Shown piece after piece: positions 2,488 through 63,456 of a stretch of DNA of 64,000 bases. Below the pieces are notes generated by a model. The model had not been told where the DNA came from and searched no databases. It saw nothing but the letters and a program-made list of their open reading frames with translations. The stretch is taken from assembly GCA_964016885.1 (NCBI GenBank), contig OZ024740.1:309008001-309072000 (forward strand). Reading direction: 5' to 3'. Each line of letters opens with the position of its first letter. Positions within the stretch are counted from its first letter, which is position 1. The position numbers and the translations under genes were made by a program. The DNA is from Eledone cirrhosa (Eukaryota).

Positions 2488-3095
2488 ATGTATCCCAGTA
2501 CAACCTGTCTCATGGTCGGGTCGTTGGCGACTAAACTGGCAACCCCACCAAGGTTTCTTGGTGAGGAGGGTGACTTTGGACATCCTGCAGGACTAAAAAC
2601 AAAACCTGTCAAAGGGCAAAGGAGCTCTTAAGAGTCAATGGCCATCCAAAATCACCGGGAGAGATGACCCCTTTAGCCTTAGTCAAGGCAGAATTCTAGG
2701 AGAAGGAAAACTCTGATATAACACCTGCAACCCTGATGGTATCCAATGATGTTGACTTGTTCTTCTTTTTGGTAAATAGCATCTTGGTTAAGAGAGTGGG
2801 ACTGGCTTTGTGCAGTGCCTTTGCTCACTATAAAAGCTTCACGGCACAGGCATTGCTTTATATCTGGAGATCTCTCTGCACTTGTCCTCACATGGGCCCA
2901 GCACTATGTGTCAATAATTGTCCTACCATGGGCCTAGCACTATGTGTCAATGATTGTCACAGGTGTAGTGTTTGTACCAGAGGTTTCAAGTCGCTGGCTG
3001 GACTAAAAAGTCACACTCGTTCAGCGCTTCGGTAGGGGTTATCCTACATGGATGTAAAGTAGTGGCCGTACTCGAAAACGAGTTGGCAGCCACCA
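2488..3095 (+). mobile_element. Family A, copy 2 (slightly 5'-truncated, in tandem with copy 1)
   Basis: Repeats copy 1 from atgtatcccagtac onward; internal duplication of catgggcc..gtcaat..ttgtc. Confidence 0.85.
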
Positions 3096-3389
3096 TATAT
3101 GTATGTATGTATATATATATGTATGTATGTATATATATATATATGTATGTATGTATATATATATATATGTATGTATATATATATATATGTATGTATATAT
3201 ATATATATGTATGTATGTATATATATATGTATGTATGTATATATATATGTATGTATGTATATATATATGTATGTATGTATGTATATATATATGTATGTAT
3301 GTATATATATATGTATGTATGTATATATATATGTATGTATGTATGTATATATATGTATGTATGTATGTATATATATGTATGTATGTATG

Positions 3390-14220: not shown

Positions 14221-15030
14221 ATTATACTATTTATGGTTATGTAAATACAAAAACCTTTTGCAGTTATATATATTTTTATACAAACCCTAAATAGTGGTAG
14301 GCAGTAATATATTACTAGCTTATTACCAGTAAGTTAAGTAGCTCAATGTAAAAACATAAGATGATTTACAGAGCAGTTATATGAATTATAAGAACCAAAG
14401 AACTGTTCAAAACATTTTTATGCTTACAACTGTTTCCTCCAAACCGAGGTTTGGATTCTTCTGAGCAATTTATTATTGAATGAACACTTATATGACCTCC
14501 TTTTCACCCAAGAGACATACAGATACATATGCAAATATTGTGGGTCAACATTCATTACAGCATTTAGAGTGGCAGTACACACTTAGAGATTGCATTCATA
14601 TTAAAAGATACAATCAAAAATACGGGTTAAAATACAACATGAAATTAAGCGGTTATATAGTGCAAAGGTTATATGTGTGGCAAGTACGTGCGTCTTGTTT
14701 ATATAGTGTGGCAGAGAGTTACGTGTAGTAGAAGCACTTAAGTAGGTAATCGAGAGTGTTAGGTTGGTTGATCTGGTGACAAATTCTTTATATGATTGTT
14801 ATAGTCTGTGTGTGGAGAAATAATATAAGTATTAAAAATAGTGTAAGCATTAAAAATATTGGAAATGCACAGCGAAGCGATGATATGGACTTCATGCACT
14901 TCGACATTTTCATAGTCTGGGGAGCGTATTTTTCAGATTATATGCCCCTCACATAATCCACGACGATTCGATATTGGGCGTTTGACAATCCAGTTAGAGA
15001 ATCGTAGTCTGATGTTCTTTAGTTTAATAT
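14221..15030 (-). mobile_element. Hammerhead-bearing non-coding insert, probable Penelope-like pseudo-LTR or derivative
   Basis: Unique sequence inside the TA array carrying a minimal type I hammerhead fold; no RT or GIY-YIG coding sequence recognised. Confidence 0.5.
14421..14467 (-). ncRNA. Minimal type I hammerhead ribozyme, CAGAAGA core variant
   Basis: Minus strand: tgct CAGAAGA a tccaaac-ctcg-gtttgga g GAAAC agtt GTA agca; stems I, II and III all pair. Confidence 0.7.
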
Positions 15031-23184: not shown

Positions 23185-23440
23185 GTGTTCGCTATTCTTC
23201 TGAATTTTGGCTTGTTCTAGCCGATGATATTTCTTGTCTTTTTCCCTGCTCTGATGAGTCCTAATTACTGGGATGAAACATTGTCAGCGAATAAAGATTT
23301 TTAATGTATTAAAGGCTTCTTTGTTAATTTTATATAATTTTTCGGCTCTTTTTGATAACATTGAGCTATATCTTATACTGTCATTTCTCTAATACGACGA
23401 GTGTGTTTAACTCTAATGCACTCAAGTATTTTTATCTTAT
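23185..23440 (+). mobile_element. Probable Penelope-like solo pseudo-LTR
   Basis: Minimal hammerhead immediately followed by AATAAA and a T-rich tract; ends in (TA)n. Confidence 0.6.
23247..23289 (+). ncRNA. Minimal type I hammerhead ribozyme with canonical core
   Basis: tgct CTGATGA gtccta-atta-c-tgggat GAAAC att GTC agcg; predicted cleavage after C23285. Confidence 0.82.
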
Positions 23441-52780: not shown

Positions 52781-53130
52781 ATAGTAATAATAAATACAAA
52801 GAACAAAATCCCAGAAGGACTTCATAAAGATTGTATATATATGTATATATATATAGTTATATAAAAACCCGTAGAGTAAATATTTATTATCAGTACAGAT
52901 TAAAAGGTTAAGCAAAAAATCTCTGCTTTCACCCTAAAGAGGATCATCTGAAACAGAAAAATCAATCTGTAGATGCAGAAGTAAATATAAAAAAAAAGTT
53001 ACAACCAAATATTGCCTTTAGAAAGCAGGAAGACATAATGGTAAGTGTGTGAGGATGTTCTTTTGAGATGAGCGAAATGTATGCAAGGAGAAATACATCA
53101 TTATGTGGAGCGAGAAGAACAAATTCTTGG
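52781..53130 (-). mobile_element. Hammerhead-bearing repeat (family H), copy 1
   Basis: Homologous to 60488-60990; right boundary approximate. Confidence 0.6.
52894..52971 (-). ncRNA. Extended type I hammerhead, CAGAUGA core variant
   Basis: tacagattga-tttttct-gttt CAGATGA tcctctttagggt GAAA gcagag-att-ttttg CTT aacc-tt-ttaatctgta. Confidence 0.62.
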
Positions 53131-53539
53131 TGTGGAAAAATCAGGAGAATAATATTCTTTTTAGAATGACCGAATAATTTCCATCTTCCATGTATGGAAA
53201 ATGATATTAATAGTAGTAAAATGATTAAACATAAAAAAATATATATTGTTATACATTTGGAGGGTTATACTGTCAATAAAAACATACATCAGTTGGGTTT
53301 CACTTTAATTTATTATTATAATTTCCCAGTCGGTTAGTTTAATAACTGGATGGTTGTTTAGTTGTTGATTGTCAAAGCTCTTTTGTCACATATATATATA
53401 TAAAGTGACTACTTTGTTTCCTCTTTGTTCTGTTTTACACCACCTCGTCTTTAAATGTAAGTTTATAGTTATTTGTTTACCTATCTCTCTTCCTTCCCCT
53501 AAACCCATTAATAAGTGTATATAAAGGTATCCCTTTATA

Positions 53540-54290
53540 TACACTTATGTTGAGGGTAGTCTCTCCTCCTTCTATTTTATTGACTTTACTAAGGCTTTTG
53601 AAACAGTCAACAGAGAAGCCTTATGGATCATTCTTAGTAATTAGGCTATCCACAGACATTTTTGTAGATATTCAAACAATTACATTGAGACATGAAGGCA
53701 AGAGGTTTATTTAATGGAAATCTCTTGGCACCAATTTCTGTGGACAACAGTGTTAAGCAGGGGGACATTCCTGCTCCAACACTATTTGCAATATACTTTG
53801 CTGTTCTCCTTGCTTATGTTATCGAGGCATAAACCTGCATTTCCAAACATCTTGGCAAGTCTTTAATTTAAGAAGATTTAATTATAAATCTCTGACATTC
53901 AATGTGTGAATACAAGAACTTTTGTATGCTGATGATGCTGACACTGTTGCACACTCAGAAACAGACATTCAGTACACGATGGATACATTTTAGGGCTCAC
54001 TGTAAGCTTAACTAAGACCAAGTTGATGAACTCTCCAGCACAAGTAAAACCTTAGGTTGTGCCAAATATATATGTGAATGGAATCAGGTTGGCGGTGGTG
54101 GATGTTTTTTTTTGTATCTGGATAATACTGTGTCAAAGGGCAGAGTTTAGATGCAGAAATACATCTTTGGGTACAGAAGGCAAGTGCTGCATTTGGAAAA
54201 TTAGTGAAAAGAGTGTGGTCAGACAAAAATAACTGTGTATGAGGTGGTTGTGCTTAAAGTTTTGTTGCATGGATGTGAAGCATGGACTGC
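53540..54290 (+). pseudogene. Decayed RTE (BovB-like lineage) RT fragment
   Basis: FIDFTKAFETVNREALW, VKQGDIPAPTLF, ELLYADDA, LLHGCEAWT. Confidence 0.8.
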
Positions 54291-54676
54291 TCACATATAT
54301 ATATATATGCATGTATACTTATGTGTGTATATATGCATGTATACAAATATATGCATGTATACATATATATGTATGTATATATGCATGTATACATATAAAT
54401 CTGTGTGTATATGTATGTACATATGTACATGTATGTATATATGTATATATATACATCTGTGTATATGTATGTATACATACATGTATATACAAGGTTTATT
54501 TCACAAGTAAGGGTACTAATTTTCCTATGTATGACATGGTAAAGAAGCATCTCGATGTATATAGAAATATTGGTTATGACCTTGGTTGCAGGTACATACT
54601 TGTTTCAGCATGATCAATTGAGCCAGTTGTGAGTTATTGCTCTTATATGTAGAGACGTGTTTATAATCTCTGTATA

Positions 54677-54878
54677 AACTCAATATAGGCGCAAACATAT
54701 AGTTTTGATGCTTATGTATATGGGCTGATTAGCCTCATTTACATACAGAACTGTAGGCTGGCTTGGCCTGAACAAGAACTAGGATTAAGGTATTTGCTCT
54801 AACATAACTCTACATATAAGTAAGTTTATCAGCCCATATACATAAGCATGAAAATTATGTTTGCACCTATATTGAGTT
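54677..54878. repeat. Inverted repeat, ~50-bp arms
   Basis: 54677-54729 versus 54828-54878. Confidence 0.75.
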
Positions 54879-55132
54879 CCAGAACGTGAAGTGGAGGAGT
54901 ACATTACCTTGATAACAACCATATAGTCAGAAACAGCTGTTAGTAATTTCCCCTTGCTTCTGATGGAACTTGATAGGTGGCACCCTGCCACCACCTTTTA
55001 AAATTCATAGCTAATGGCTTTCAAATGTTTATTTGTAAACATATTGTATATTATTGGATATACAAAACTTACATACTTATATGTATACAACTATGTTGGA
55101 GCGAACACTTTCATGTTTATATATATATATAT

Positions 55133-55200
55133 ATCAGTTCCCGTCCCACCCTTGCAAGCAGGGAAAAGCGGACGTAAAATGAAATGATGATGAAATGATG
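55133..55200 (+). mobile_element. Isolated SINE 3' tail
   Basis: atcagttcccgtcccacccttgcaagcaggg..(tga)n. Confidence 0.8.
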
Positions 55201-55257
55201 ATATATATGTATGTGTGTATATGTGTCTTCACACACACATATATACATCTATGAATA

Positions 55258-55302
<45 letters not shown>

Positions 55303-55503
55303 ATATATGCATACATGTATGTGTATATATATATATATATATGCATACATGTATGTGTATATATATATGCATACATGTATGTGTATATATATATATGCAT
55401 ACATGTATGTGTATATATATATATGCATGCATGTATGTGTATATATATATATGTATATATATATATGCATACATGTATGTGTATATATATATATGCATGC
55501 ATG

Positions 55504-55536
<33 letters not shown>

Positions 55537-55619
55537 GCATACATGTATGTGTATATATATATATATACAAACATGTATGTGTATATATATATATATATAT
55601 ATATGCATATATATATATA

Positions 55620-55685
<66 letters not shown>

Positions 55686-55720
55686 TATGCATATATATAT
55701 ATATATGCATATATATATAT
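55201..55720. repeat. (TA)n with tgcatacatgtatgtg units
   Basis: Direct inspection. Confidence 0.9.
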
Positions 55721-55831
55721 GATGGCTGCAAACTCGTGTTCAAGCATTGCCATCACCTGATAAAATGCTAAAAAATGTGACCACGAATGCGGCTCTTTAA
55801 ACCAGCCAAAGACTTGCATCCTCTGGCGCAC
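55721..55831 (-). mobile_element. Diverged 3' end related to family A (C2H2 remnant + tail)
   Basis: [18 protein letters not shown]; cgagtttgcagccatc + (TA)n. Confidence 0.7.
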
Positions 55832-55891
55832 CCCCCCCCCCCCCCCCCCACACACACACAGGCACACACACACACACACATATATATATGT

Positions 55892-55939
<48 letters not shown>

Positions 55940-55967
55940 ACAAATATGTGTATATATATATATATAC

Positions 55968-57300
55968 AGGAGTAATTCCACATCAATGTGGACTGGGTCA
56001 GACACAACACTCACCACTGTTTTTATTTCCATCATTCTCAGTGATTCATTGTTTGTCTGCCTTTCTCTCGATGATACTCCACTCATCTGTCGTGCTATTC
56101 TCATTTCCAGTCCCTCCAGCATTCTCTGCTGCTCCACATTCATCACCAATGTCTCACTCCCATTAATAATAGAATGTTTCACACATTTCCCATAAGTTTC
56201 AGTGACACTCCTCTTCTCATTAGCTCACCAATCAGTTGCTAGAGCATCTGCCATGCACATCTCACTCTAGATACTGCTGCAGAGTCTGATCCACTTTTTC
56301 ATTCAACATATCTCCAAGGTACCAAAACGTTTTCACACCTTCCATCTTTATCCCAATCCTAAGGGCCAGCTCAACATCCTCTCCATCTGTAGCTCCTCCA
56401 ATACACACTTTACCCTTATATGCAGCTGCCACATTATTTAATAATCCCTTCACATCACTACATTTTTTATGTCCCCATTAAGTGTTTATCCTACATTTAA
56501 TGGAGTTCATTCCAGCACTCTTCCTGCACACTACATATAACTACCTTTCTGTTCTTTTCATCTCACCAAGTACTTTGCCACTTGTGACCATCATCTTCTT
56601 TTCAATATTCACCTTCATACCCTTTGCCTCCATACATTCCTTCCACCTATTCATCATCTCCTTTAATCTCTCCATACTCTCAGCTGTTAGCACCAAGTCA
56701 TCTTTGTATAGCAACTCTCATAGTAAACCCTTCCTTTACACTTCAGGCCAGTACTTCCTTCACTTCAAACTTGCCACTGTTCCTGTCCTTCATTCTTACT
56801 ATTGTTTGCATTTTCTTGTACATTGTCATCACTACTCTTACCAACCAGTCTTCTCCTAACAGTAAACCTCCAGATTAGTAAACCCCCCCAAAACAAATTC
56901 TTCCTCTTGTCCCTGTACTTCTGTAACTGCCTCACAATAATAATTGCATCAAATATTCTTATTCCCTGCACAAATCCAAATTTTCATTTCATCAATGTTC
57001 AATTTTTTTCTTATCCTCTTCCCTAGCACTCTTTCTAATACATTCATTCCATGATCTAATAACTTAATTGGTTTATACAAGTGACAATTTAGAGGATCAC
57101 TTTTCTCCTTGTACAGAGGGATGAGAACATTTAGTTCCCATTCCATTGGAATATAGTCTTATTTCACCACCAAGCTACAGATCTCTACCATCTTCACATT
57201 CTAATTTCCTGCTGCCTTTAACATATATCCCACAACTACTTTTGGCTCTCCCGTCCTTTCATTTTTCATCTCTCTTAATGCTTCCTCAACTTCTTCCTCA
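55968..57300 (-). pseudogene. Old RTE ORF remnant
   Basis: LIPLYKEKSDPLNCHLYKPIKLLDH; DAIIIVRQLQ; FWYLGDML; GSETL. Confidence 0.8.
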
Positions 57301-57472
57301 ATTATCTAACATGTATATTAGAAAATCTAAGATAAATTTAATGTAGGCATAACTGTAGCTTTTAAGCTTTGCTATGAAAATTTAAACAAATGTGAAAAAT
57401 ATTCCATTATATTCTCTTACATAAAAAAGACATAAGAATTTGCCTTTACATGTTTCATGGCTAATTGGTTGT

Positions 57473-58100
57473 TCATAATAATAATAATAATGAAATTATT
57501 GTGTACAGTGTTCAGGTTCACTACAACTCATCAAAGGTGCATGTATAGTACATAGAATAATGTACAAATGTCAGGAAAATGAACAGTGTACGAGTCATGA
57601 AATACATGTGTACGTGTGTATGGAGGGTGGACATCAGGTGTAGTGTTGGCGAATCTCAGGAAGCCTGGAGATTTTGAAGGATGCAGTGTCTTGGCAGCTA
57701 ACAACTGATGCAGGTAGTTTGTTCCATGCTTCAGCAACTCTGAGCATGAAAAAATGTTTCCGAAAGTCATGGGAGCTGTGCTGCTTTCTGACTTTGTAGG
57801 CATGCCCACGTGTGTTAGATACATGGAAATCAAAAAGGTGCTCAGGGTTGTTGTTGGCAAGATGGTTAATGATTTTGTGGGTGTTTACCAAGTCAGTTGC
57901 CAGACGTCGGAGCTTCAATGTATCCATGCCGAGGGAAGCAAGGCGTTCAGAGTATGGTAGATGCCTGATGGAGGGTATTCGCTTGGTTGCACGTCTCTGA
58001 ACAGTTTCCAGGCGGTCAATGTTCTGAGCAAGATAGGGGTTCCAGACTGGTGATGCAAATTCTGTGGCCACACCATAGCTATATACAGCTTTAAATTAGA
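57473..58100 (-). mobile_element. 3' fragment of the CR1-group LINE
   Basis: ORF 57634-58071 is near-identical to the ORF2 C-terminus; (ATT)n tail. Confidence 0.93.
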
Positions 58101-58349
58101 TGACAAGTAGCCTTATATTTCTATCTGAAGAGAGCTATAGTCAAACACTCACAATCTGGGACAACTAAAATGCCAGTCTAATTTGCATAATGTGTCTCCA
58201 GCATAATTAATTAAAATCTAAGCTAAGTTTAATGTAGATATAACTACAGTTTATAAGCTGCTCTCTGGAAATTAAAAAAGTTAGTAACCATAAATTCCAA
58301 TTTCATTTATTTGTGGTGGATGGTGGAGGTGGGGTTAGATTGCCTTTTT

Positions 58350-58565
58350 CTCATAGCTCTTAGAAGTGAGTGGGGAGCTACAAAATGTTGATAATTTCTT
58401 CCTACCTTTTATGTTCTGAGTTCAAATCTGTTGAGGTTAGTTTTGTCTTTCATCCTCATGGGGTAGATAAAATGAAGTTCCAGTAATGCACTGGGGTTAA
58501 TTTAATCAACCTTCTCCTTTCCTTCAAATTGCTGGTCTTGTGCCAAATATAGAAACAATTATTAA
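58350..58565 (+). mobile_element. Old tRNA SINE with Nin-like central domain
   Basis: gagttcaaatc, ctttcatcctcatggggtagataaaatgaagttccag. Confidence 0.65.
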
Positions 58566-58779
58566 TATCATGAGCAAGCGTAACTACTTCAACAAGGTTT
58601 GAAGAAGAATAAGTCGAGCTTCAGTTTCTTTTTTTAGTTGTTGTTGCATATGAGATCCCTTAGGCTCTAAGATGTTGACAATATTGTGGAATATCAGTTT
58701 CTGTTGACAAGAAAATGTATGAACTGACATTATCAGAGATTCTTGTGAAATAGAGTATTTGAGTTTCTTAAGCAATCAT

Positions 58780-59445
58780 CCTTATCATCATAATCATCAT
58801 CATCACTATTTACCATCATCATAATCCTCATTATCACTATTTAATATCTATTTTCCATGCTTGCATGGCATAGACAAGCTGCTATGTACTGATCCTAGAT
58901 TTGTCAGGTGACTATGTCTTGCTCATATGCTCTGTTTTTTATTCAGTTTCTGTGATTTGATGTCCTTTCTAATGCCAGCCATGTTACAGTATGTACTGCG
59001 AGTCTTTTATCATGACTCCGGCACTACCATCTTATAGGGTGGACTGGGTGCTTTTTGTTGTGGTACTAGCCCAACCACCTTACAGGATGGACTGGGTGCT
59101 TTTTGTTGTGGTACCAACCCAACCACTTTACAGAGTGGATTGGGTGTTTTTTGTTGTGGTATCAGCCCAACTTTCTGTTGTGGTACTAGATCAACCACCT
59201 TACATAGGGTATTGGGTGTTTTTTGTTGTGGTACTAGCCCAACCACCTTACAGGGTAGATTGGGTGTTTTTTGTTGTGGTATCAGCCCAACCACCTTACA
59301 GGGTGGATTGGGTGTTTTTTGTTGTGGTATCAGCCCAACCACCTTACAGGGTGGATTGGGTGTTTTTTGTTGTGGTATCAGCCCAACCACCTTACATGGA
59401 GGATTGGGTGTTTTTCATTGTGGCACCAGCCCAACCTAATTACAA
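58780..59445 (-). repeat. Old RTE/SINE tail carrying a 48-bp minisatellite (about 59020-59440)
   Basis: Unit ccaccttacagggtggattgggtgttttttgttgtggtatcagcccaa, about 8-9 copies. Confidence 0.85.
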
Positions 59446-59479
59446 CACTAGGGTGTTTGATGTGTCAAACTGGGGAGGC

Positions 59480-60440
59480 AATAGTAGGAGTTGGGAGGAA
59501 TGTAAAATATTTTCTTATATATTCATCATCTTCCCTGTCTTTGCTTGATGCAAACGAGAACCTCCCTAGCTCTTTCTGTTAACACTTGGTCTTCAAGACT
59601 ACCCTGTGCATCTTCTATCCAAGCTTGGATATCATCTTCTGTGACATCTGTTTTACCTTCCCGCTTAACCCATTTCTTGCCAACTCGGCCAAAACCAGGT
59701 CTGGTTCTATGAAATAAAGTCATCCATTTAAAAAGTGTTCACACTAAATTAAAATCTTCCAACATAATTTTAAATAAGAACCTTACATTAAGTTACTGTC
59801 CTAGTAATGAAATAATTGATAATTTTAGTAAATCCCTCAAAATTCTTCATTAATTAACTGAAATAGTGAGTATTTCATTAGAAATGCAATCATGAAAGGG
59901 TTAAGTATGTGATTAATATCTTTCAAAATCATTTTCTTGCTCTACATTGTGCAGAAGTCTTTTTTTTCTCAAGTATTGGGAAGAGTGGTAGTGTTGAGGG
60001 CAATCATTAATGCTAATGAATTAAATATTGCAGATTTGTTGATATTAGTGGTTGTAACATGATGTAACTGAGGGTTGTTAATGTAATTGGGTGTTGTTGA
60101 TGCTACTGGTTGTAACATGATGTTACTGGTTGTAACATGATGTTACTGGGTCTTGTTGATTTAACTGGATGTAACTGAGAATTCTTTACATGTGTTTGCC
60201 TTCTCTGAGATTGTCATTTTCTATAACCACAAGAATTTTATCTAAATATCTTCATTGGTATAAACTCCTGCCAGCTACACTTATGCCGTGACTCATTGGC
60301 TAGATTATAGATGTAACATAAGATGGCAAAAAGCATGTCCCATAGTTTGTAGTAATTACTGATAAGTTGGTGACAAAGTTGCTTGGACAGGTCTGATATG
60401 AGTAGTGCCTTCACCTCTTCAGCAGACAGTATGAAGAAAT
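59480..60440 (-). pseudogene. Decayed pogo/Tigger-like transposase, interrupted
   Basis: EVKALLISD; FLPSYVTSII*PMSHGI (compare FLPPNTTSLIQPMDQGI); acidic DVTEDDIQAWIED..QVLTE tail. Confidence 0.55.
59665..59904 (-). mobile_element. piggyBac-type MITE with TTAA target duplication
   Basis: ttaa-cccatttc ... gaaaggg-ttaa. Confidence 0.75.
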
Positions 60441-60452
60441 CTTAAAAATATT

Positions 60453-60487
<35 letters not shown>

Positions 60488-60491
<4 letters not shown>

Positions 60492-60990
60492 ATAATAATA
60501 AATTTGAAGACTAAAATCCAAAAAGGGCTCGATAAGGATAAATATATATCAAATATATAAAAACCGTAGAGCAAATATTTATTAAAATAACAGATTAAAG
60601 TTTAAGCAAAGAATCGCTGCTTTCACCCTTAACGGGATCTTCTGAAACTAACAAAGTCAATCTGTAAACGCAGAAGTGGATATTTCAAAAAACGTTGCAA
60701 CCAGAGGAAGACGATACTTTGGTTTGTGGAAACGTTCCCTGGCAAAGAACGGGAAAAAAGAAATATAATACGTCATTAATAGGAGCTATGAAAAACAATT
60801 ACACGCAAAGACAGAACCATGTTTATGGTATAAAATAAGTCGTAGACTAATGTTCTCTTAGGTGGTTCATAGAGACGTTCTCTGGCAATGAATGGAAAAA
60901 ACGATGATAATACATCATATGTGGAGCGTGGAGAACAATTGCACGCAAAGACAAAACCACGTAAATGGTATAGCTGAAGTCGTAGACTAA
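60488..60990 (-). mobile_element. Hammerhead-bearing repeat (family H), copy 2, with diverged internal duplication
   Basis: 60731-60850 is repeated at 60874-60990; the element may extend to about 61650. Confidence 0.6.
60590..60665 (-). ncRNA. Extended type I hammerhead, CAGAAGA core variant
   Basis: acagattga-ctttgtt-agttt CAGAAGA t-ccc-gttaa-ggg-t GAAA gcagcgattctttg CTT aaact-ttaatctgt, then aataaa. Confidence 0.7.
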
Positions 60991-63456
60991 AATTCTAACT
61001 AGGAAGCCGAATGAATCTCCGCTACAGAGTTAAGAATAAAGTAAATAAAATACAATACAGAGGTAATAGAAATTAAATCAATACATACACGCATGCAAAT
61101 ACGTACATACACAAGCATACGCGAAAACACTTGCCATAGGTATACAAAACGACGCACATATAAATATGTGTGTGTGTGTGTGCGTGTATACAAATAAATA
61201 ATTAAATAAACGTATATAAATAAATAAATACGTCTATAACAAGCGCACACACATACCTACATGTAAATACACATGTTCGGAGACGTACGTCAACTAAAAC
61301 ATGAAGTACACATACATACGTACGAACCCGCATACTCACACAGACACAAAACTCCCGTATACACATAACCAAACCATATGTACCAGAATATATAAAAATT
61401 ATACGTCATAACATATACAATCAATTATATGTACGAGAAAGTATACGTACCTTCACAAAACATATAGGTAATATATACTTACCTATGCAAATAAGTAATG
61501 GTATAAACATAACATATACTTAGCTATATATATAAACATAAATGGAAGAAGCAAACAAGATAAAAAGTTAACTGAATTACTTCAATGTCCCGAATGCAGT
61601 TTCGTTGTGTAAAGACATGGCCTGGGCCAATACTGGCCAAAATCTATCAAAGTTATATATATATATATGATGATGATGACAATACATATTATTTTGTATA
61701 AAAATGACTTCTACAGAACTAGAACTGTTTTTATTCATATAAATCATCAGGATTCCTGATGGTTTCATACCAATGAAACATTTCTAGTCCTGTACAGTTC
61801 ATTTCCATATAAAATAAATGTGCTTCTTCTCTACTAACATATTGAGTACCTTATTTAACTGTGTTTTTTTTCTGATCCCCTTCATTCATCTCTTAAGTGT
61901 CATTGGTCTCTGACAACTCCTCCAATCCAATGATGATGACAATAATGATGGTGATGATATCTATTGTTTTATTTGTTTGACATAATTGACACCTAACTTT
62001 TCATGTTTTCTTCTAATTCTTGGCAGGCAACCATTTTGTTTTAACCCTATAAGGCTTAATTTTCTGTTAAAGAAACATGTAGAGGAAATTAACCTGCTAT
62101 TCTAGGAATATGAAACAAGTCAAACTAAAAAAACTCGTCTTTGAGCAATGCAAAAATACTACTTATAATAAATAAACTATTGTTTCAAATCACACAAATT
62201 CCATGTATAGAAAATGGGTTATTACATTTTTTCTATGTGAGTAACATCAACAAAAATAAATAAATAAAAAGAAGTCTTTAAAGGTTTCACAGACCACTTT
62301 CAATTGATGTCAAGCTTCTATAAAAATCTAATTGGTATAAATGTATCAGAAAAATGAATTGAAATAACAAACAAATAACAGCAAACTAATAATAAAAAAG
62401 AAATTTTGTTGCCTGTCATACTTTTTAACATATATTTTATTTAACTCTTTTTTTTTTTATTCATTTCCTTCACCATTTACCTTATCATCATCATCACACC
62501 ATCAGCATCATCGTTGTCATTGTTGTTTACCACCCTCTTTATCTGTTAACTTTCCTCTTCAAACTCTAAGCAATCTCCTAATTTTATTCACTGTTGAATG
62601 GAAAAAGAACAACAATAAAATGGAAACTGCTTTTGTTGCATTGTTTAGCTGTCTTGAAGTACTGTAATATTCTTTGAATATTCCTTTCTCTAGATTTATA
62701 ATTCCTATAATTCAGTCATTTCATTTGCTTCTTTTCTATCTCTGGCAATGTCTTTTAAATATTGCTCTGATGTTTTACCTGAAGTGGTTCTAAATGTTGC
62801 CATGACTCACTATAAGGTAATTAAAGAAAAGAAAACAAAAGAAAGAGCAGAAAAGTTAAAAAAAAAAAAAAACCCTGAAAAAAAACCGTTTAAAGTGAGT
62901 AAAATTTATTCTGGAAAAAAAAATTCAACATTAGATCCCCCTTTTATCATTGCACAATATTGTTGATTATATTTAATTCTTTTAGCTCTGTCATGCATCT
63001 TTTAAATAAACAGTTCAACATGCATCAAGCAAGCTCCTTTCATGACACTTCCATACAAACATAAACAATTCCAGATTGCACTCATACATGCAAATAATTA
63101 TTTTGATCTCTTTTTACTCATTACTCCATCTCTCTCTTTCTAACTCTCTAGCCCCCCCCCCCTTCTCTACTAATCTATTCCTCTCTCTCTCTTCCACCCC
63201 CTCTCCTTCCTTCCCTCCCTCCCTCTCTCCTTCCCTCTCTTCCCTCTCTCTTTACATATATATCTATATATATATTTATATAAAATTGTTCATTTGTTTG
63301 TCTGTTTATCTCCAATGCACTTAAAAGCCAGTGGAATAATCATGTTCAAACTTGGCATGTGAGTTCCTTAGACTCAGGAATAGGTTTTCCTCACACTTGG
63401 ACCTATATTCATTTGTTTATAAGTTTGTCTGGGTTTGGAAAAATAATTGTTTATAC

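What the first reader, a model, noticed from the sequence alone, without database searches (positions are those of the whole stretch)
52894..60665. Repeat family carrying an extended type I hammerhead with a shared non-canonical CAGA core
Seen: two clearly diverged copies (52894-52971 and 60590-60665, both minus strand) keep CAGA(T/A)GA, a U/U 10.1-11.1 position, short stem II, GAAA, a 4-6 bp stem III, a CUU triplet, and stem I split by a pyrimidine-rich bulge with a 9-10 bp distal helix (acagattga/ttaatctgt), followed by AATAAA. Loops and flanks differ while helices and core are mostly retained; copy 1 has one stem I mismatch. Established: U4 is nearly invariant, and bulge-loop II contacts boost natural hammerheads. 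Inference: a functional U4A hammerhead subclass in a non-autonomous Penelope- or retrozyme-like family. Standard motif searches would miss it.
Basis: partly seen in the sequence, partly recalled or inferred. Interest (0 to 1): 0.75.

Follow-up and report, generated by a model that had tools for sequence, protein, structure and literature searches.

The report
Penelope hammerhead with fixed A4 core
The two motifs are tail ends of a protein-coding jumping gene with over 18,000 matching copies in this animal genome, whose hammerhead-shaped RNA has A where hammerheads normally have U; the shape stayed unchanged through four subfamilies, so it is likely a slow self-cutting RNA, which is untested.

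Summary
Both motifs are as described and are 5'-truncated 3' ends of an autonomous Hydra-clade Penelope-like element (PLE), not of a non-autonomous repeat. Related loci carry an RT + GIY-YIG ORF with the Hydra motifs, and one has a repeat-ORF-repeat layout. CAGA is the consensus: 18,031 exact matches have A4 and 180 have another base. Across four subfamily consensuses, 0 of 56 core or paired columns vary, against 12 of 23 loop columns. The fold therefore looks selected, but no compensatory change was found and A4 itself is not shown to be selected. Genomic copies span the predicted cut site, so they were copied from uncut or re-joined RNA. A second Hydra family here has fixed U4C, and the closest family found keeps U4. 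Most likely this is an attenuated, possibly protein-assisted hammerhead. Cleavage is untested, and a non-cutting protein handle is a serious rival. I found no U4A hammerhead in the paper library, though Lünse 2017 was not held. This scan has reported the same family several times on other DNA of this genome.

The parts
60489..61525 (-). 5'-truncated copy (3' UTR / pseudo-LTR only) of the young subfamily of a Hydra-clade Penelope-like element, with TA repeats at both ends
   Evidence: Homology to 29 other loci starts at or after 61525 and runs into the TA tail. In longer copies the ORF stop lies about 40 nt upstream of this start.
60739..61482 (-). 744-nt GT..AG intron in the 3' UTR, retained in this copy and exactly removed in others
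   Evidence: Junctions seen in L002 and L010; length; 228 exact spliced-junction matches genome-wide.
60590..60665 (-). Extended type I hammerhead-like motif, copy 2, matching the young-subfamily consensus; A4 at 60643, predicted cut between 60604 and 60603
   Evidence: 40 genomic matches at 99-100% identity listed.
60575..60584 (-). AATAAA-containing site where one class of element copies ends (20-29 nt past the predicted cut); likely a reverse-transcription start site
   Evidence: 49 of 116 alignments end 20-29 nt and 56 of 116 end 110-119 nt past the cut. The RT-start reading is inferred from PMC11167929.
52770..53237 (-). 5'-truncated, decayed copy of an older subfamily (O3) of the same element
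   Evidence: Homology to L058, L044, L035, L043 and L099 stops at 53236-53238; nearest genomic relatives are 82-88% identical.
52894..52971 (-). Hammerhead-like motif, copy 1; A4 at 52949, predicted cut between 52910 and 52909; private stem I mismatch and 2-nt loss

Best explanation
These are end pieces of an autonomous Hydra-clade Penelope-like retrotransposon whose terminal-repeat hammerhead motif has A fixed at core position 4, and the motif is likely an attenuated, possibly protein-assisted ribozyme that would cut only a minority of transcripts. Shown: the element encodes RT + GIY-YIG, forms repeat-ORF-repeat tandems, ends in TA repeats, has spliced copies, and its copies run through the motif to two discrete ends beyond the predicted cut. 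Inferred: the folded motif is kept by selection on the active master copies. Slow cutting leaves uncut RNA as the template for target-primed reverse transcription, which starts about 25 or about 110 nt past the cut. Occasional cutting would free unit-length RNA (3259 nt in L085) whose 5' end lies 156 nt before the start codon. The two window copies are inert, ORF-less leftovers.
For: Element identity: ORFs upstream of the motif on the same strand. L085 has motif-ORF-motif with a 3259-nt period and the ATG 156 nt after the first cut. Fixation: 18,031 A4 vs 180 non-A, with T in 34 of the first 100 non-A matches listed. Among 55 old copies found with anchors outside the core, 52 have A4, 2 have C, 1 has a deletion and none has T (counted by eye). 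Selection on the fold: 0 of 56 core or paired columns vary among four subfamily consensuses, vs 12 of 23 loop columns and 62 of 172 upstream columns. For the 13 core columns alone p=0.002 vs loops and 0.005 vs upstream; these include G8, G12, the C3-G8 pair and a non-G base at position 17. The lineage spans an old and a young ORF at 71-72% amino-acid identity (the old copy is decayed). Position 4 is flexible in another PLE here: a separate Hydra family with intact 832-aa ORFs has CCGA in 99 of the first 100 of 3,816 matches, with the motif unchanged across divergent flanks. A natural U4C viroid variant is slow in vitro yet sufficient in vivo (PMC3088659). A PLE hammerhead cleaves only with its protein (PMC11167929). 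Uncut template: 228 spliced-junction matches; in the 6 spliced junctions in my loci the core follows 108 nt later; two ends lie past the cut.
Against: There is no cleavage assay and no RNA data. In a mutational scan, single and double mutants of the CUGA turn all had low activity except the C3/G8 swap (PMC9901934). The motif stacks U4A on a U.U pair, a 3-bp stem II and a CUU triplet (that CUU is a poor triplet is recalled, not from a call). 0 of 22 pairs show a change on both sides in 19 hand-picked copies, so the structure rests on conservation pattern and homology. One invariant column cannot show that A4 itself is selected. Copies do not start more often at the cut: 48 at the cut vs 76 at a site 4 nt upstream. 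Hammerhead cleavage was dispensable for insertion in vitro in PAc, so conservation may reflect protein binding rather than chemistry. The hammerhead fold lies about 4.3 kcal/mol above the ensemble, although a canonical-core family gave 4.8. No single fully intact ORF of this family was seen in the loci fetched.
Confidence: 0.55

Rival explanations
1. Catalytically dead hammerhead fold kept as a binding and positioning handle for the element's RT-endonuclease. U4A was tolerated, or favoured, because cutting destroys the template.
For: Copies derive from RNA that spans the cut. One element end sits about 10 nt past the distal helix. There is no excess of 5' ends at the cut. CUGA mutants are poorly active. 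PAc insertion does not need cleavage. Naiad PLEs spread without canonical hammerheads (PMC8557442).
Against: The catalytic G8 and G12 and the non-G at position 17 are all invariant, which a mere handle need not require. Canonical-core PLEs also end past their cut sites, so uncut templates do not distinguish the models.
Confidence: 0.3
2. Fully active U4A hammerhead subclass rescued by a contact between the stem I bulge and loop II.
For: The extended stem I with an invariant 9-bp distal helix and a 5-bp stem III that could close as a monomer. Tertiary contacts are proposed to offset core variants (PMC3088659).
Against: The bulge and loop II change in sequence and length between subfamilies without matching partners. 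There are several weakening features. Efficient cutting at the 3' motif is hard to square with 105 of 116 copies ending at two sites beyond the cut, unless the RNA is re-ligated.
Confidence: 0.1
3. Neutral relic: a dead ribozyme carried along, with the apparent conservation caused by an overlapping DNA signal such as an internal promoter or endonuclease target.
For: No covariation. Conservation extends somewhat into the flanks: 8 of 42 downstream columns vary.
Against: All 12 variable columns inside the motif fall in unpaired non-core positions (p=3e-8 vs core and paired columns), a pattern that follows RNA structure.
Confidence: 0.05

Closest known systems
Hydra clade of C-terminal EN+ Penelope-like elements and their hammerheads (Craig et al. 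2021, PMC8557442; read: abstract, section 11, passages, supplement File S1 Hydra sheet, File S2, partial protein rows)
   Same: RW(K/R), DKT, CxCX5C linker, CxxC and CxH motifs; single RT-EN ORF; TA targets; tandem and inverted layouts; type I hammerhead near the 3' end; U/U flanking stem II (14 of 26 File S2 Hydra rows).
   Different: All 26 published rows have CTGA and G at 16.2 (their descriptor was built on the canonical core) and stem III loops of 1-3 nt. Here there are A4, a CUU triplet, a 5-bp stem III with a 7-nt loop, a bulged extended stem I, a 3' UTR of about 1.1 kb and a 744-nt intron. By eye this is a different family from Hydra-1_Obim (protein start and hammerhead differ).
PLE minimal hammerheads (Cervera and De la Pena 2014, PMC4209133; read: parts 1-2 of 4)
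   Same: Type I motif in the terminal repeats, weak predicted activity, an intron upstream in the repeat (D. virilis Penelope), and a U3-A8 variant that is also seen here in related families.
   Different: No position-4 variant in the text read. Those motifs are minimal and dimeric; this one has a real stem III and a long stem I.
Natural hammerhead core variants (Perreault et al. 2011, PMC3088659; read: passages and part 2 of section 3; figures not visible)
   Same: U4C (viroid), U10.1-U11.1 and U3-A8 are known natural variants that retain some activity.
   Different: The term U4A has 0 occurrences in the text. Those variants are rare isolates, whereas this one is fixed in a lineage of more than 18,000 copies.
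PAc (Poseidon PLE of Anolis; PMC11167929; read: passages)
   Same: Two discrete genomic ends beyond the hammerhead cut, AT-rich targets, template uncut.
   Different: Different clade, canonical C3 and G8 core, tail of 30-40 bp (here about 85 nt between the two ends). Its hammerhead overlaps the start codon; here the ATG is 156 nt downstream.

Membership tests
Penelope-like elements, Hydra clade | Single ORF with RT followed by a C-terminal GIY-YIG endonuclease | tested here: met
   Overlapping ORFs in L085 (645 aa, N-terminal part) and L089 (501 aa, to the C-terminus) are 95% identical. Domains were read from motifs and by eye against published Hydra proteins; Pfam gave no informative hit.
Penelope-like elements, Hydra clade | RWK-type and DKT motifs in the N-terminal/RT region | tested here: met
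   RWR and DKT in P0001; definition.
Penelope-like elements, Hydra clade | CxCX5C linker; CxxC and CxH around the conserved E and N | tested here: met
   All three are visible in P0002 and the L028 ORF.
Penelope-like elements, Hydra clade | (TA)n targets, pseudo-LTR tandems, inverted 5'-truncated partners, tail | tested here: met
Penelope-like elements, Hydra clade | Placement inside the Hydra clade in an RT phylogeny with published members | not tested
   The tree holds only proteins from this genome; published sequences were compared by eye only.
Type I hammerhead ribozyme | Three helices around the core, stem I open | tested here: met
   96.6% of cells are paired in 19 hand-picked copies, and variation between subfamilies is confined to loops. 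No covariation.
Type I hammerhead ribozyme | Core C3 U4 G5 A6 N7 G8 A9 / G12 A13 A14 / A15.1-U16.1 / H17 | tested here: not met
   All positions are canonical except U4, which is A in 18,031 of 18,211 matches.
Type I hammerhead ribozyme | Match to an Rfam hammerhead model | tested here: not met
   No hammerhead family at E<=10 on either 201-nt stretch.
Type I hammerhead ribozyme | Site-specific self-cleavage after NUH | not testable with these tools
   Needs an assay or raw RNA reads.
Type I hammerhead ribozyme | Tertiary contact between stem I and loop II | tested here: inconclusive
   Bulge and loop II vary between subfamilies with no evident matching change.
Non-LTR retrozymes (short non-coding tandem repeats with a hammerhead) | No ORF; monomers of a few hundred nt in tandem | tested here: not met
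   The unit is 3259 nt and carries an ORF; definition from PMC7229834 passages.

The most novel reading that the evidence does not exclude
A naturally selected, catalytically competent A4 hammerhead, switched on by its own retrotransposon protein or by its extended stem I. Together with the U4C family in the same genome, it would show that PLE hammerheads tune their cutting rate through position 4, so the working consensus is CNGANGA and whole high-copy families are invisible to current descriptors.
Probability: 0.35. Interest if true: 0.72.

Novelty: new variant of a known kind. Interest (0 to 1): 0.5.

Why it matters
What hammerheads do for Penelope-like elements is open: they are almost universal in C-terminal-EN PLEs, yet weak in vitro and dispensable for insertion in the one reconstituted system. 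This genome offers natural comparisons among related, recently active elements with A4, C4, U3-A8 and canonical cores. That makes it directly testable whether cutting, or only the fold, is what selection keeps. If the A4 motif cuts, a supposedly near-invariant catalytic position is relaxed in nature and motif searches miss tens of thousands of sites per genome. If it does not, it is a ribozyme fold kept without chemistry.

Tried and rejected
1. The whole-window Rfam scan and repeat finder were swamped by TA microsatellites and gave nothing useful.
2. Pfam on two ORF pieces gave no informative family.
3. Sequencing-run search: no RNA holder listed, which is no evidence on expression. Laying four contig sets cannot show RNA ends; it was not used as evidence.
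4. The metagenome scan for Hydra relatives in other hosts gave 65 pattern matches and none confirmed, so position 4 could not be surveyed outside this genome.
5. Footprint test for cleaved templates, counting copies that begin at the cut vs a nearby control site: 48 vs 76 for this family and 14 vs 7 for a canonical-core family; 2x2 p=0.03. There is one control site each, counts are small, and both are confounded by AT-run deletions and palindromic junctions, so I treat it as weak.
6. The idea that A4 avoids or creates an alternative pairing: folding with A or U at position 4 changed the ensemble by 0.4 kcal/mol in the young subfamily and by 1.2-1.8 in the old ones in the minimal context, and inconsistently with flanks. 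Not supported as a general explanation.
7. The breakpoint tally was swamped by TA hits, and the 3'-end tally was distorted by a reference ending at +29. One search replaced both for 3' ends.
8. The protein tree is a quick tree; the careful search did not finish and the base is unresolved, so independent origins of A4 and C4 are likely but not formally tested.
9. No hammerhead was found downstream of two Hydra ORF fragments (the L084 and L043 families).
10. Non-autonomous and retrozyme readings were rejected (ORF-bearing unit).
11. Literature: nine searches. 'hammerhead'+'U4A' listed no paper on a hammerhead U4A variant by title or abstract start, and CAGANGA-type terms gave 0 papers. Lünse 2017, Arkhipova 2017 and the id I tried for a hammerhead mechanism review were not held. 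Figures and most supplements were not seen and may contain position-4 variants.
Full report
**1. Observation.** Both motifs are in the window as described, on the minus strand (coordinates). Copy 2 (60590-60665) has a 9-bp distal and a 5-bp proximal stem I around a pyrimidine-rich bulge, the core CAGAAGA, a U.U pair, a 3-bp stem II, GAAA, a 5-bp stem III and CUU. Copy 1 (52894-52971) has CAGATGA, one stem I mismatch and a private 2-nt loss. Rfam reports no hammerhead on either stretch at E<=10. Neither strand folds to the hammerhead as its minimum-energy structure. The constrained fold costs about 4.3 kcal/mol for copy 2, like a canonical-core family from the same genome (4.8), so this is not informative.

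**2. It is a very large repeat family and CAGA is its consensus.** The genome is about 3.0 Gb. Copy 2 has 40 listed matches at 99-100% identity, and the nearest relatives of copy 1 are 82-88% identical. A 32-nt core pattern with A at position 4 matches 18,031 places; with C, G or T it matches 180, and T makes up 34 of the first 100 listed. To avoid bias toward the query I anchored a pattern only on the two distal-helix strands. Of 55 old copies, 52 have A4, 2 have C, 1 has a deletion and none has T (counted by eye).

**3. The family is an autonomous Hydra-clade Penelope-like element.** Longer copies carry, on the motif's strand, an ORF for a reverse transcriptase with a C-terminal GIY-YIG-type endonuclease. 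It has the features that Craig et al. 2021 use to define the Hydra clade (PMC8557442 section 11): RWR for RWK, DKT, a CxCX5C linker, CxxC and CxH. It resembles published Hydra proteins by eye. L085 has motif-ORF-motif with a 3259-nt period and the ATG 156 nt after the first predicted cut. Copies are 5'-truncated, often paired with an inverted partner, and end in TA repeats. I saw no single fully intact ORF among the loci fetched; L085 and L089 overlap at 95% identity and together cover it. The window copies hold only the 3' UTR. That UTR contains a 744-nt GT..AG intron (61482-60739) that is exactly removed at 228 genomic matches. This indicates that the motif's strand is transcribed, spliced and reverse-transcribed.

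**4. The fold is conserved in a way that follows RNA structure.** I sorted 144 non-redundant copies by diagnostic motifs into four subfamilies (73, 35, 20 and 16 copies; 40 of the 73 were used; a few are likely mis-sorted) and built consensuses. Upstream UTR identity between them is 69-87%. Inside the motif, 0 of 56 core or paired columns vary and 12 of 23 unpaired columns do (bulge, N7, loop II, loop III, one extra U); upstream 62 of 172 vary and downstream 8 of 42 (p=3e-8 and 1e-9). The 13 core columns alone give p=0.002 and 0.005. Limits: there is no two-sided change in 22 pairs over 19 hand-picked copies. The subfamilies are related, so the p-values are approximate. One fixed column cannot show that A4, rather than the rest of the core, is under selection.

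**5. Context among other PLEs of this genome.** A descriptor with position 4 free, run over 843 kb of selected (not random) loci, gave 239 hits against 2 in reversed controls. These were the CAGA family, a CCGA family, eight multi-hit clusters with CTGA and seven singletons. The CCGA family is also Hydra-type, with intact 832-aa ORFs and 3,816 pattern matches, 99 of the first 100 being CCGA. Its motif is unchanged across divergent flanks except for the centre of its stem III palindrome. The family closest to the CAGA lineage (53-54% amino-acid identity, SH-aLRT 95 in a quick tree) has U4 with a U3-A8 core. A4 therefore most likely arose on this lineage, separately from C4; this is inferred and the tree base is unresolved. 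The U.U pair is in 14 of 26 published Hydra rows, all 26 of which have CTGA. A CU(U/A) triplet occurs in another, canonical-core family here.

**6. How it most likely works.** Of 116 alignments of young copies that span the cut, 49 end 20-29 nt and 56 end 110-119 nt beyond it. This is the two-end 'tail' pattern that in PAc marks two reverse-transcription start sites (PMC11167929). The first end lies at the AATAAA just past the distal helix. The template is therefore uncut or re-joined at the 3' motif, as in other PLEs. In PAc the hammerhead cuts only with protein and is not needed for insertion in vitro. Mutating the CUGA turn lowers activity strongly in a type III hammerhead (PMC9901934), yet a natural U4C viroid variant is slow but sufficient in vivo (PMC3088659). 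I favour an attenuated, possibly protein-assisted ribozyme (0.55), because the catalytic guanines and the cleavage-site geometry are kept. A non-cutting handle for the element's protein follows at 0.30, a fully active tertiary-stabilised ribozyme at 0.10 and a neutral relic at 0.05. A genomic footprint test was weak: 48 copies begin at the cut vs 76 at a control site, against 14 vs 7 in a canonical family. No RNA data were available.

**7. Known and new.** Known: Hydra PLEs, their hammerheads, introns in PLE repeats, and the U4C, U3-A8 and U.U variants. Not found in nine library searches: a natural, lineage-fixed U4A hammerhead (in particular). Lünse 2017 and Arkhipova 2017 were not held, and figures and most supplements were not visible, so the claim of novelty is provisional. 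By strict membership it fails the U4 criterion and Rfam; it still works like, and descends from, a PLE type I hammerhead. Earlier notes of this scan describe the same family at other places in this genome and a U4C family in another genome. I read them after forming my view. They are unchecked AI notes and add no independent support.

**8. Verdict.** A real feature and a new variant of a known kind; interest 0.5. The value lies in a direct test of whether PLE hammerheads are kept for cutting or for their fold.

Noticed in passing
window 14421-14467 (-): A third, unrelated type I hammerhead motif that also reads CAGA. Its family consensus is CCGA (U4C; 3,816 matches, 99 of the first 100 listed), in a Hydra-type PLE with intact 832-aa ORFs (L146, L148, L149); the window's A is a private change.
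   Followed up: yes
window 23247-23289 (+): Canonical CTGATGA type I hammerhead motif of another family.
   Followed up: no
L191-L193 (G000:C1:437.20-437.21 Mb) and L169-L190: Very young Hydra PLE in head-to-tail arrays with a period of about 3,531 nt, an open frame of at least 706 aa, and a U3-A8 hammerhead core with a long stem II; the closest family to the CAGA lineage found.
   Followed up: partly
L164 about 3060-3110 (+); L165 (-), about 380 nt past the ORF end: Two more Hydra families with U3-A8 cores (single, partly decayed copies; the L164 one read by eye).
   Followed up: no
L168 (-), about 6670: A long-stem-II hammerhead reading CCGATGA, similar to a decayed motif in L093 that has U at position 4; may be a private change or a further U4C subfamily.
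   Followed up: no
window 60729-60996 (-): A roughly 135-nt internal duplication in the young subfamily's intron creates a second possible splice acceptor upstream of the one used.
   Followed up: no
G000:C13:8725678-8725729 and C18:13309160-13309223: Head-to-head junctions centred on 6-nt palindromes at or near hammerhead cut sites in two families.
   Followed up: no
window 53231-53393: A separate repeat piece abuts the 5' end of copy 1 and occurs in inverted orientation downstream of related copies in L058, L044 and L037.
   Followed up: no
flanks of both window motifs (about 60690-60680 with 60585-60575): Upstream and downstream AT-rich stretches could extend stem I further, and a conserved upstream pyrimidine motif could pair with the core or with stem III as an alternative fold.
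   Followed up: partly
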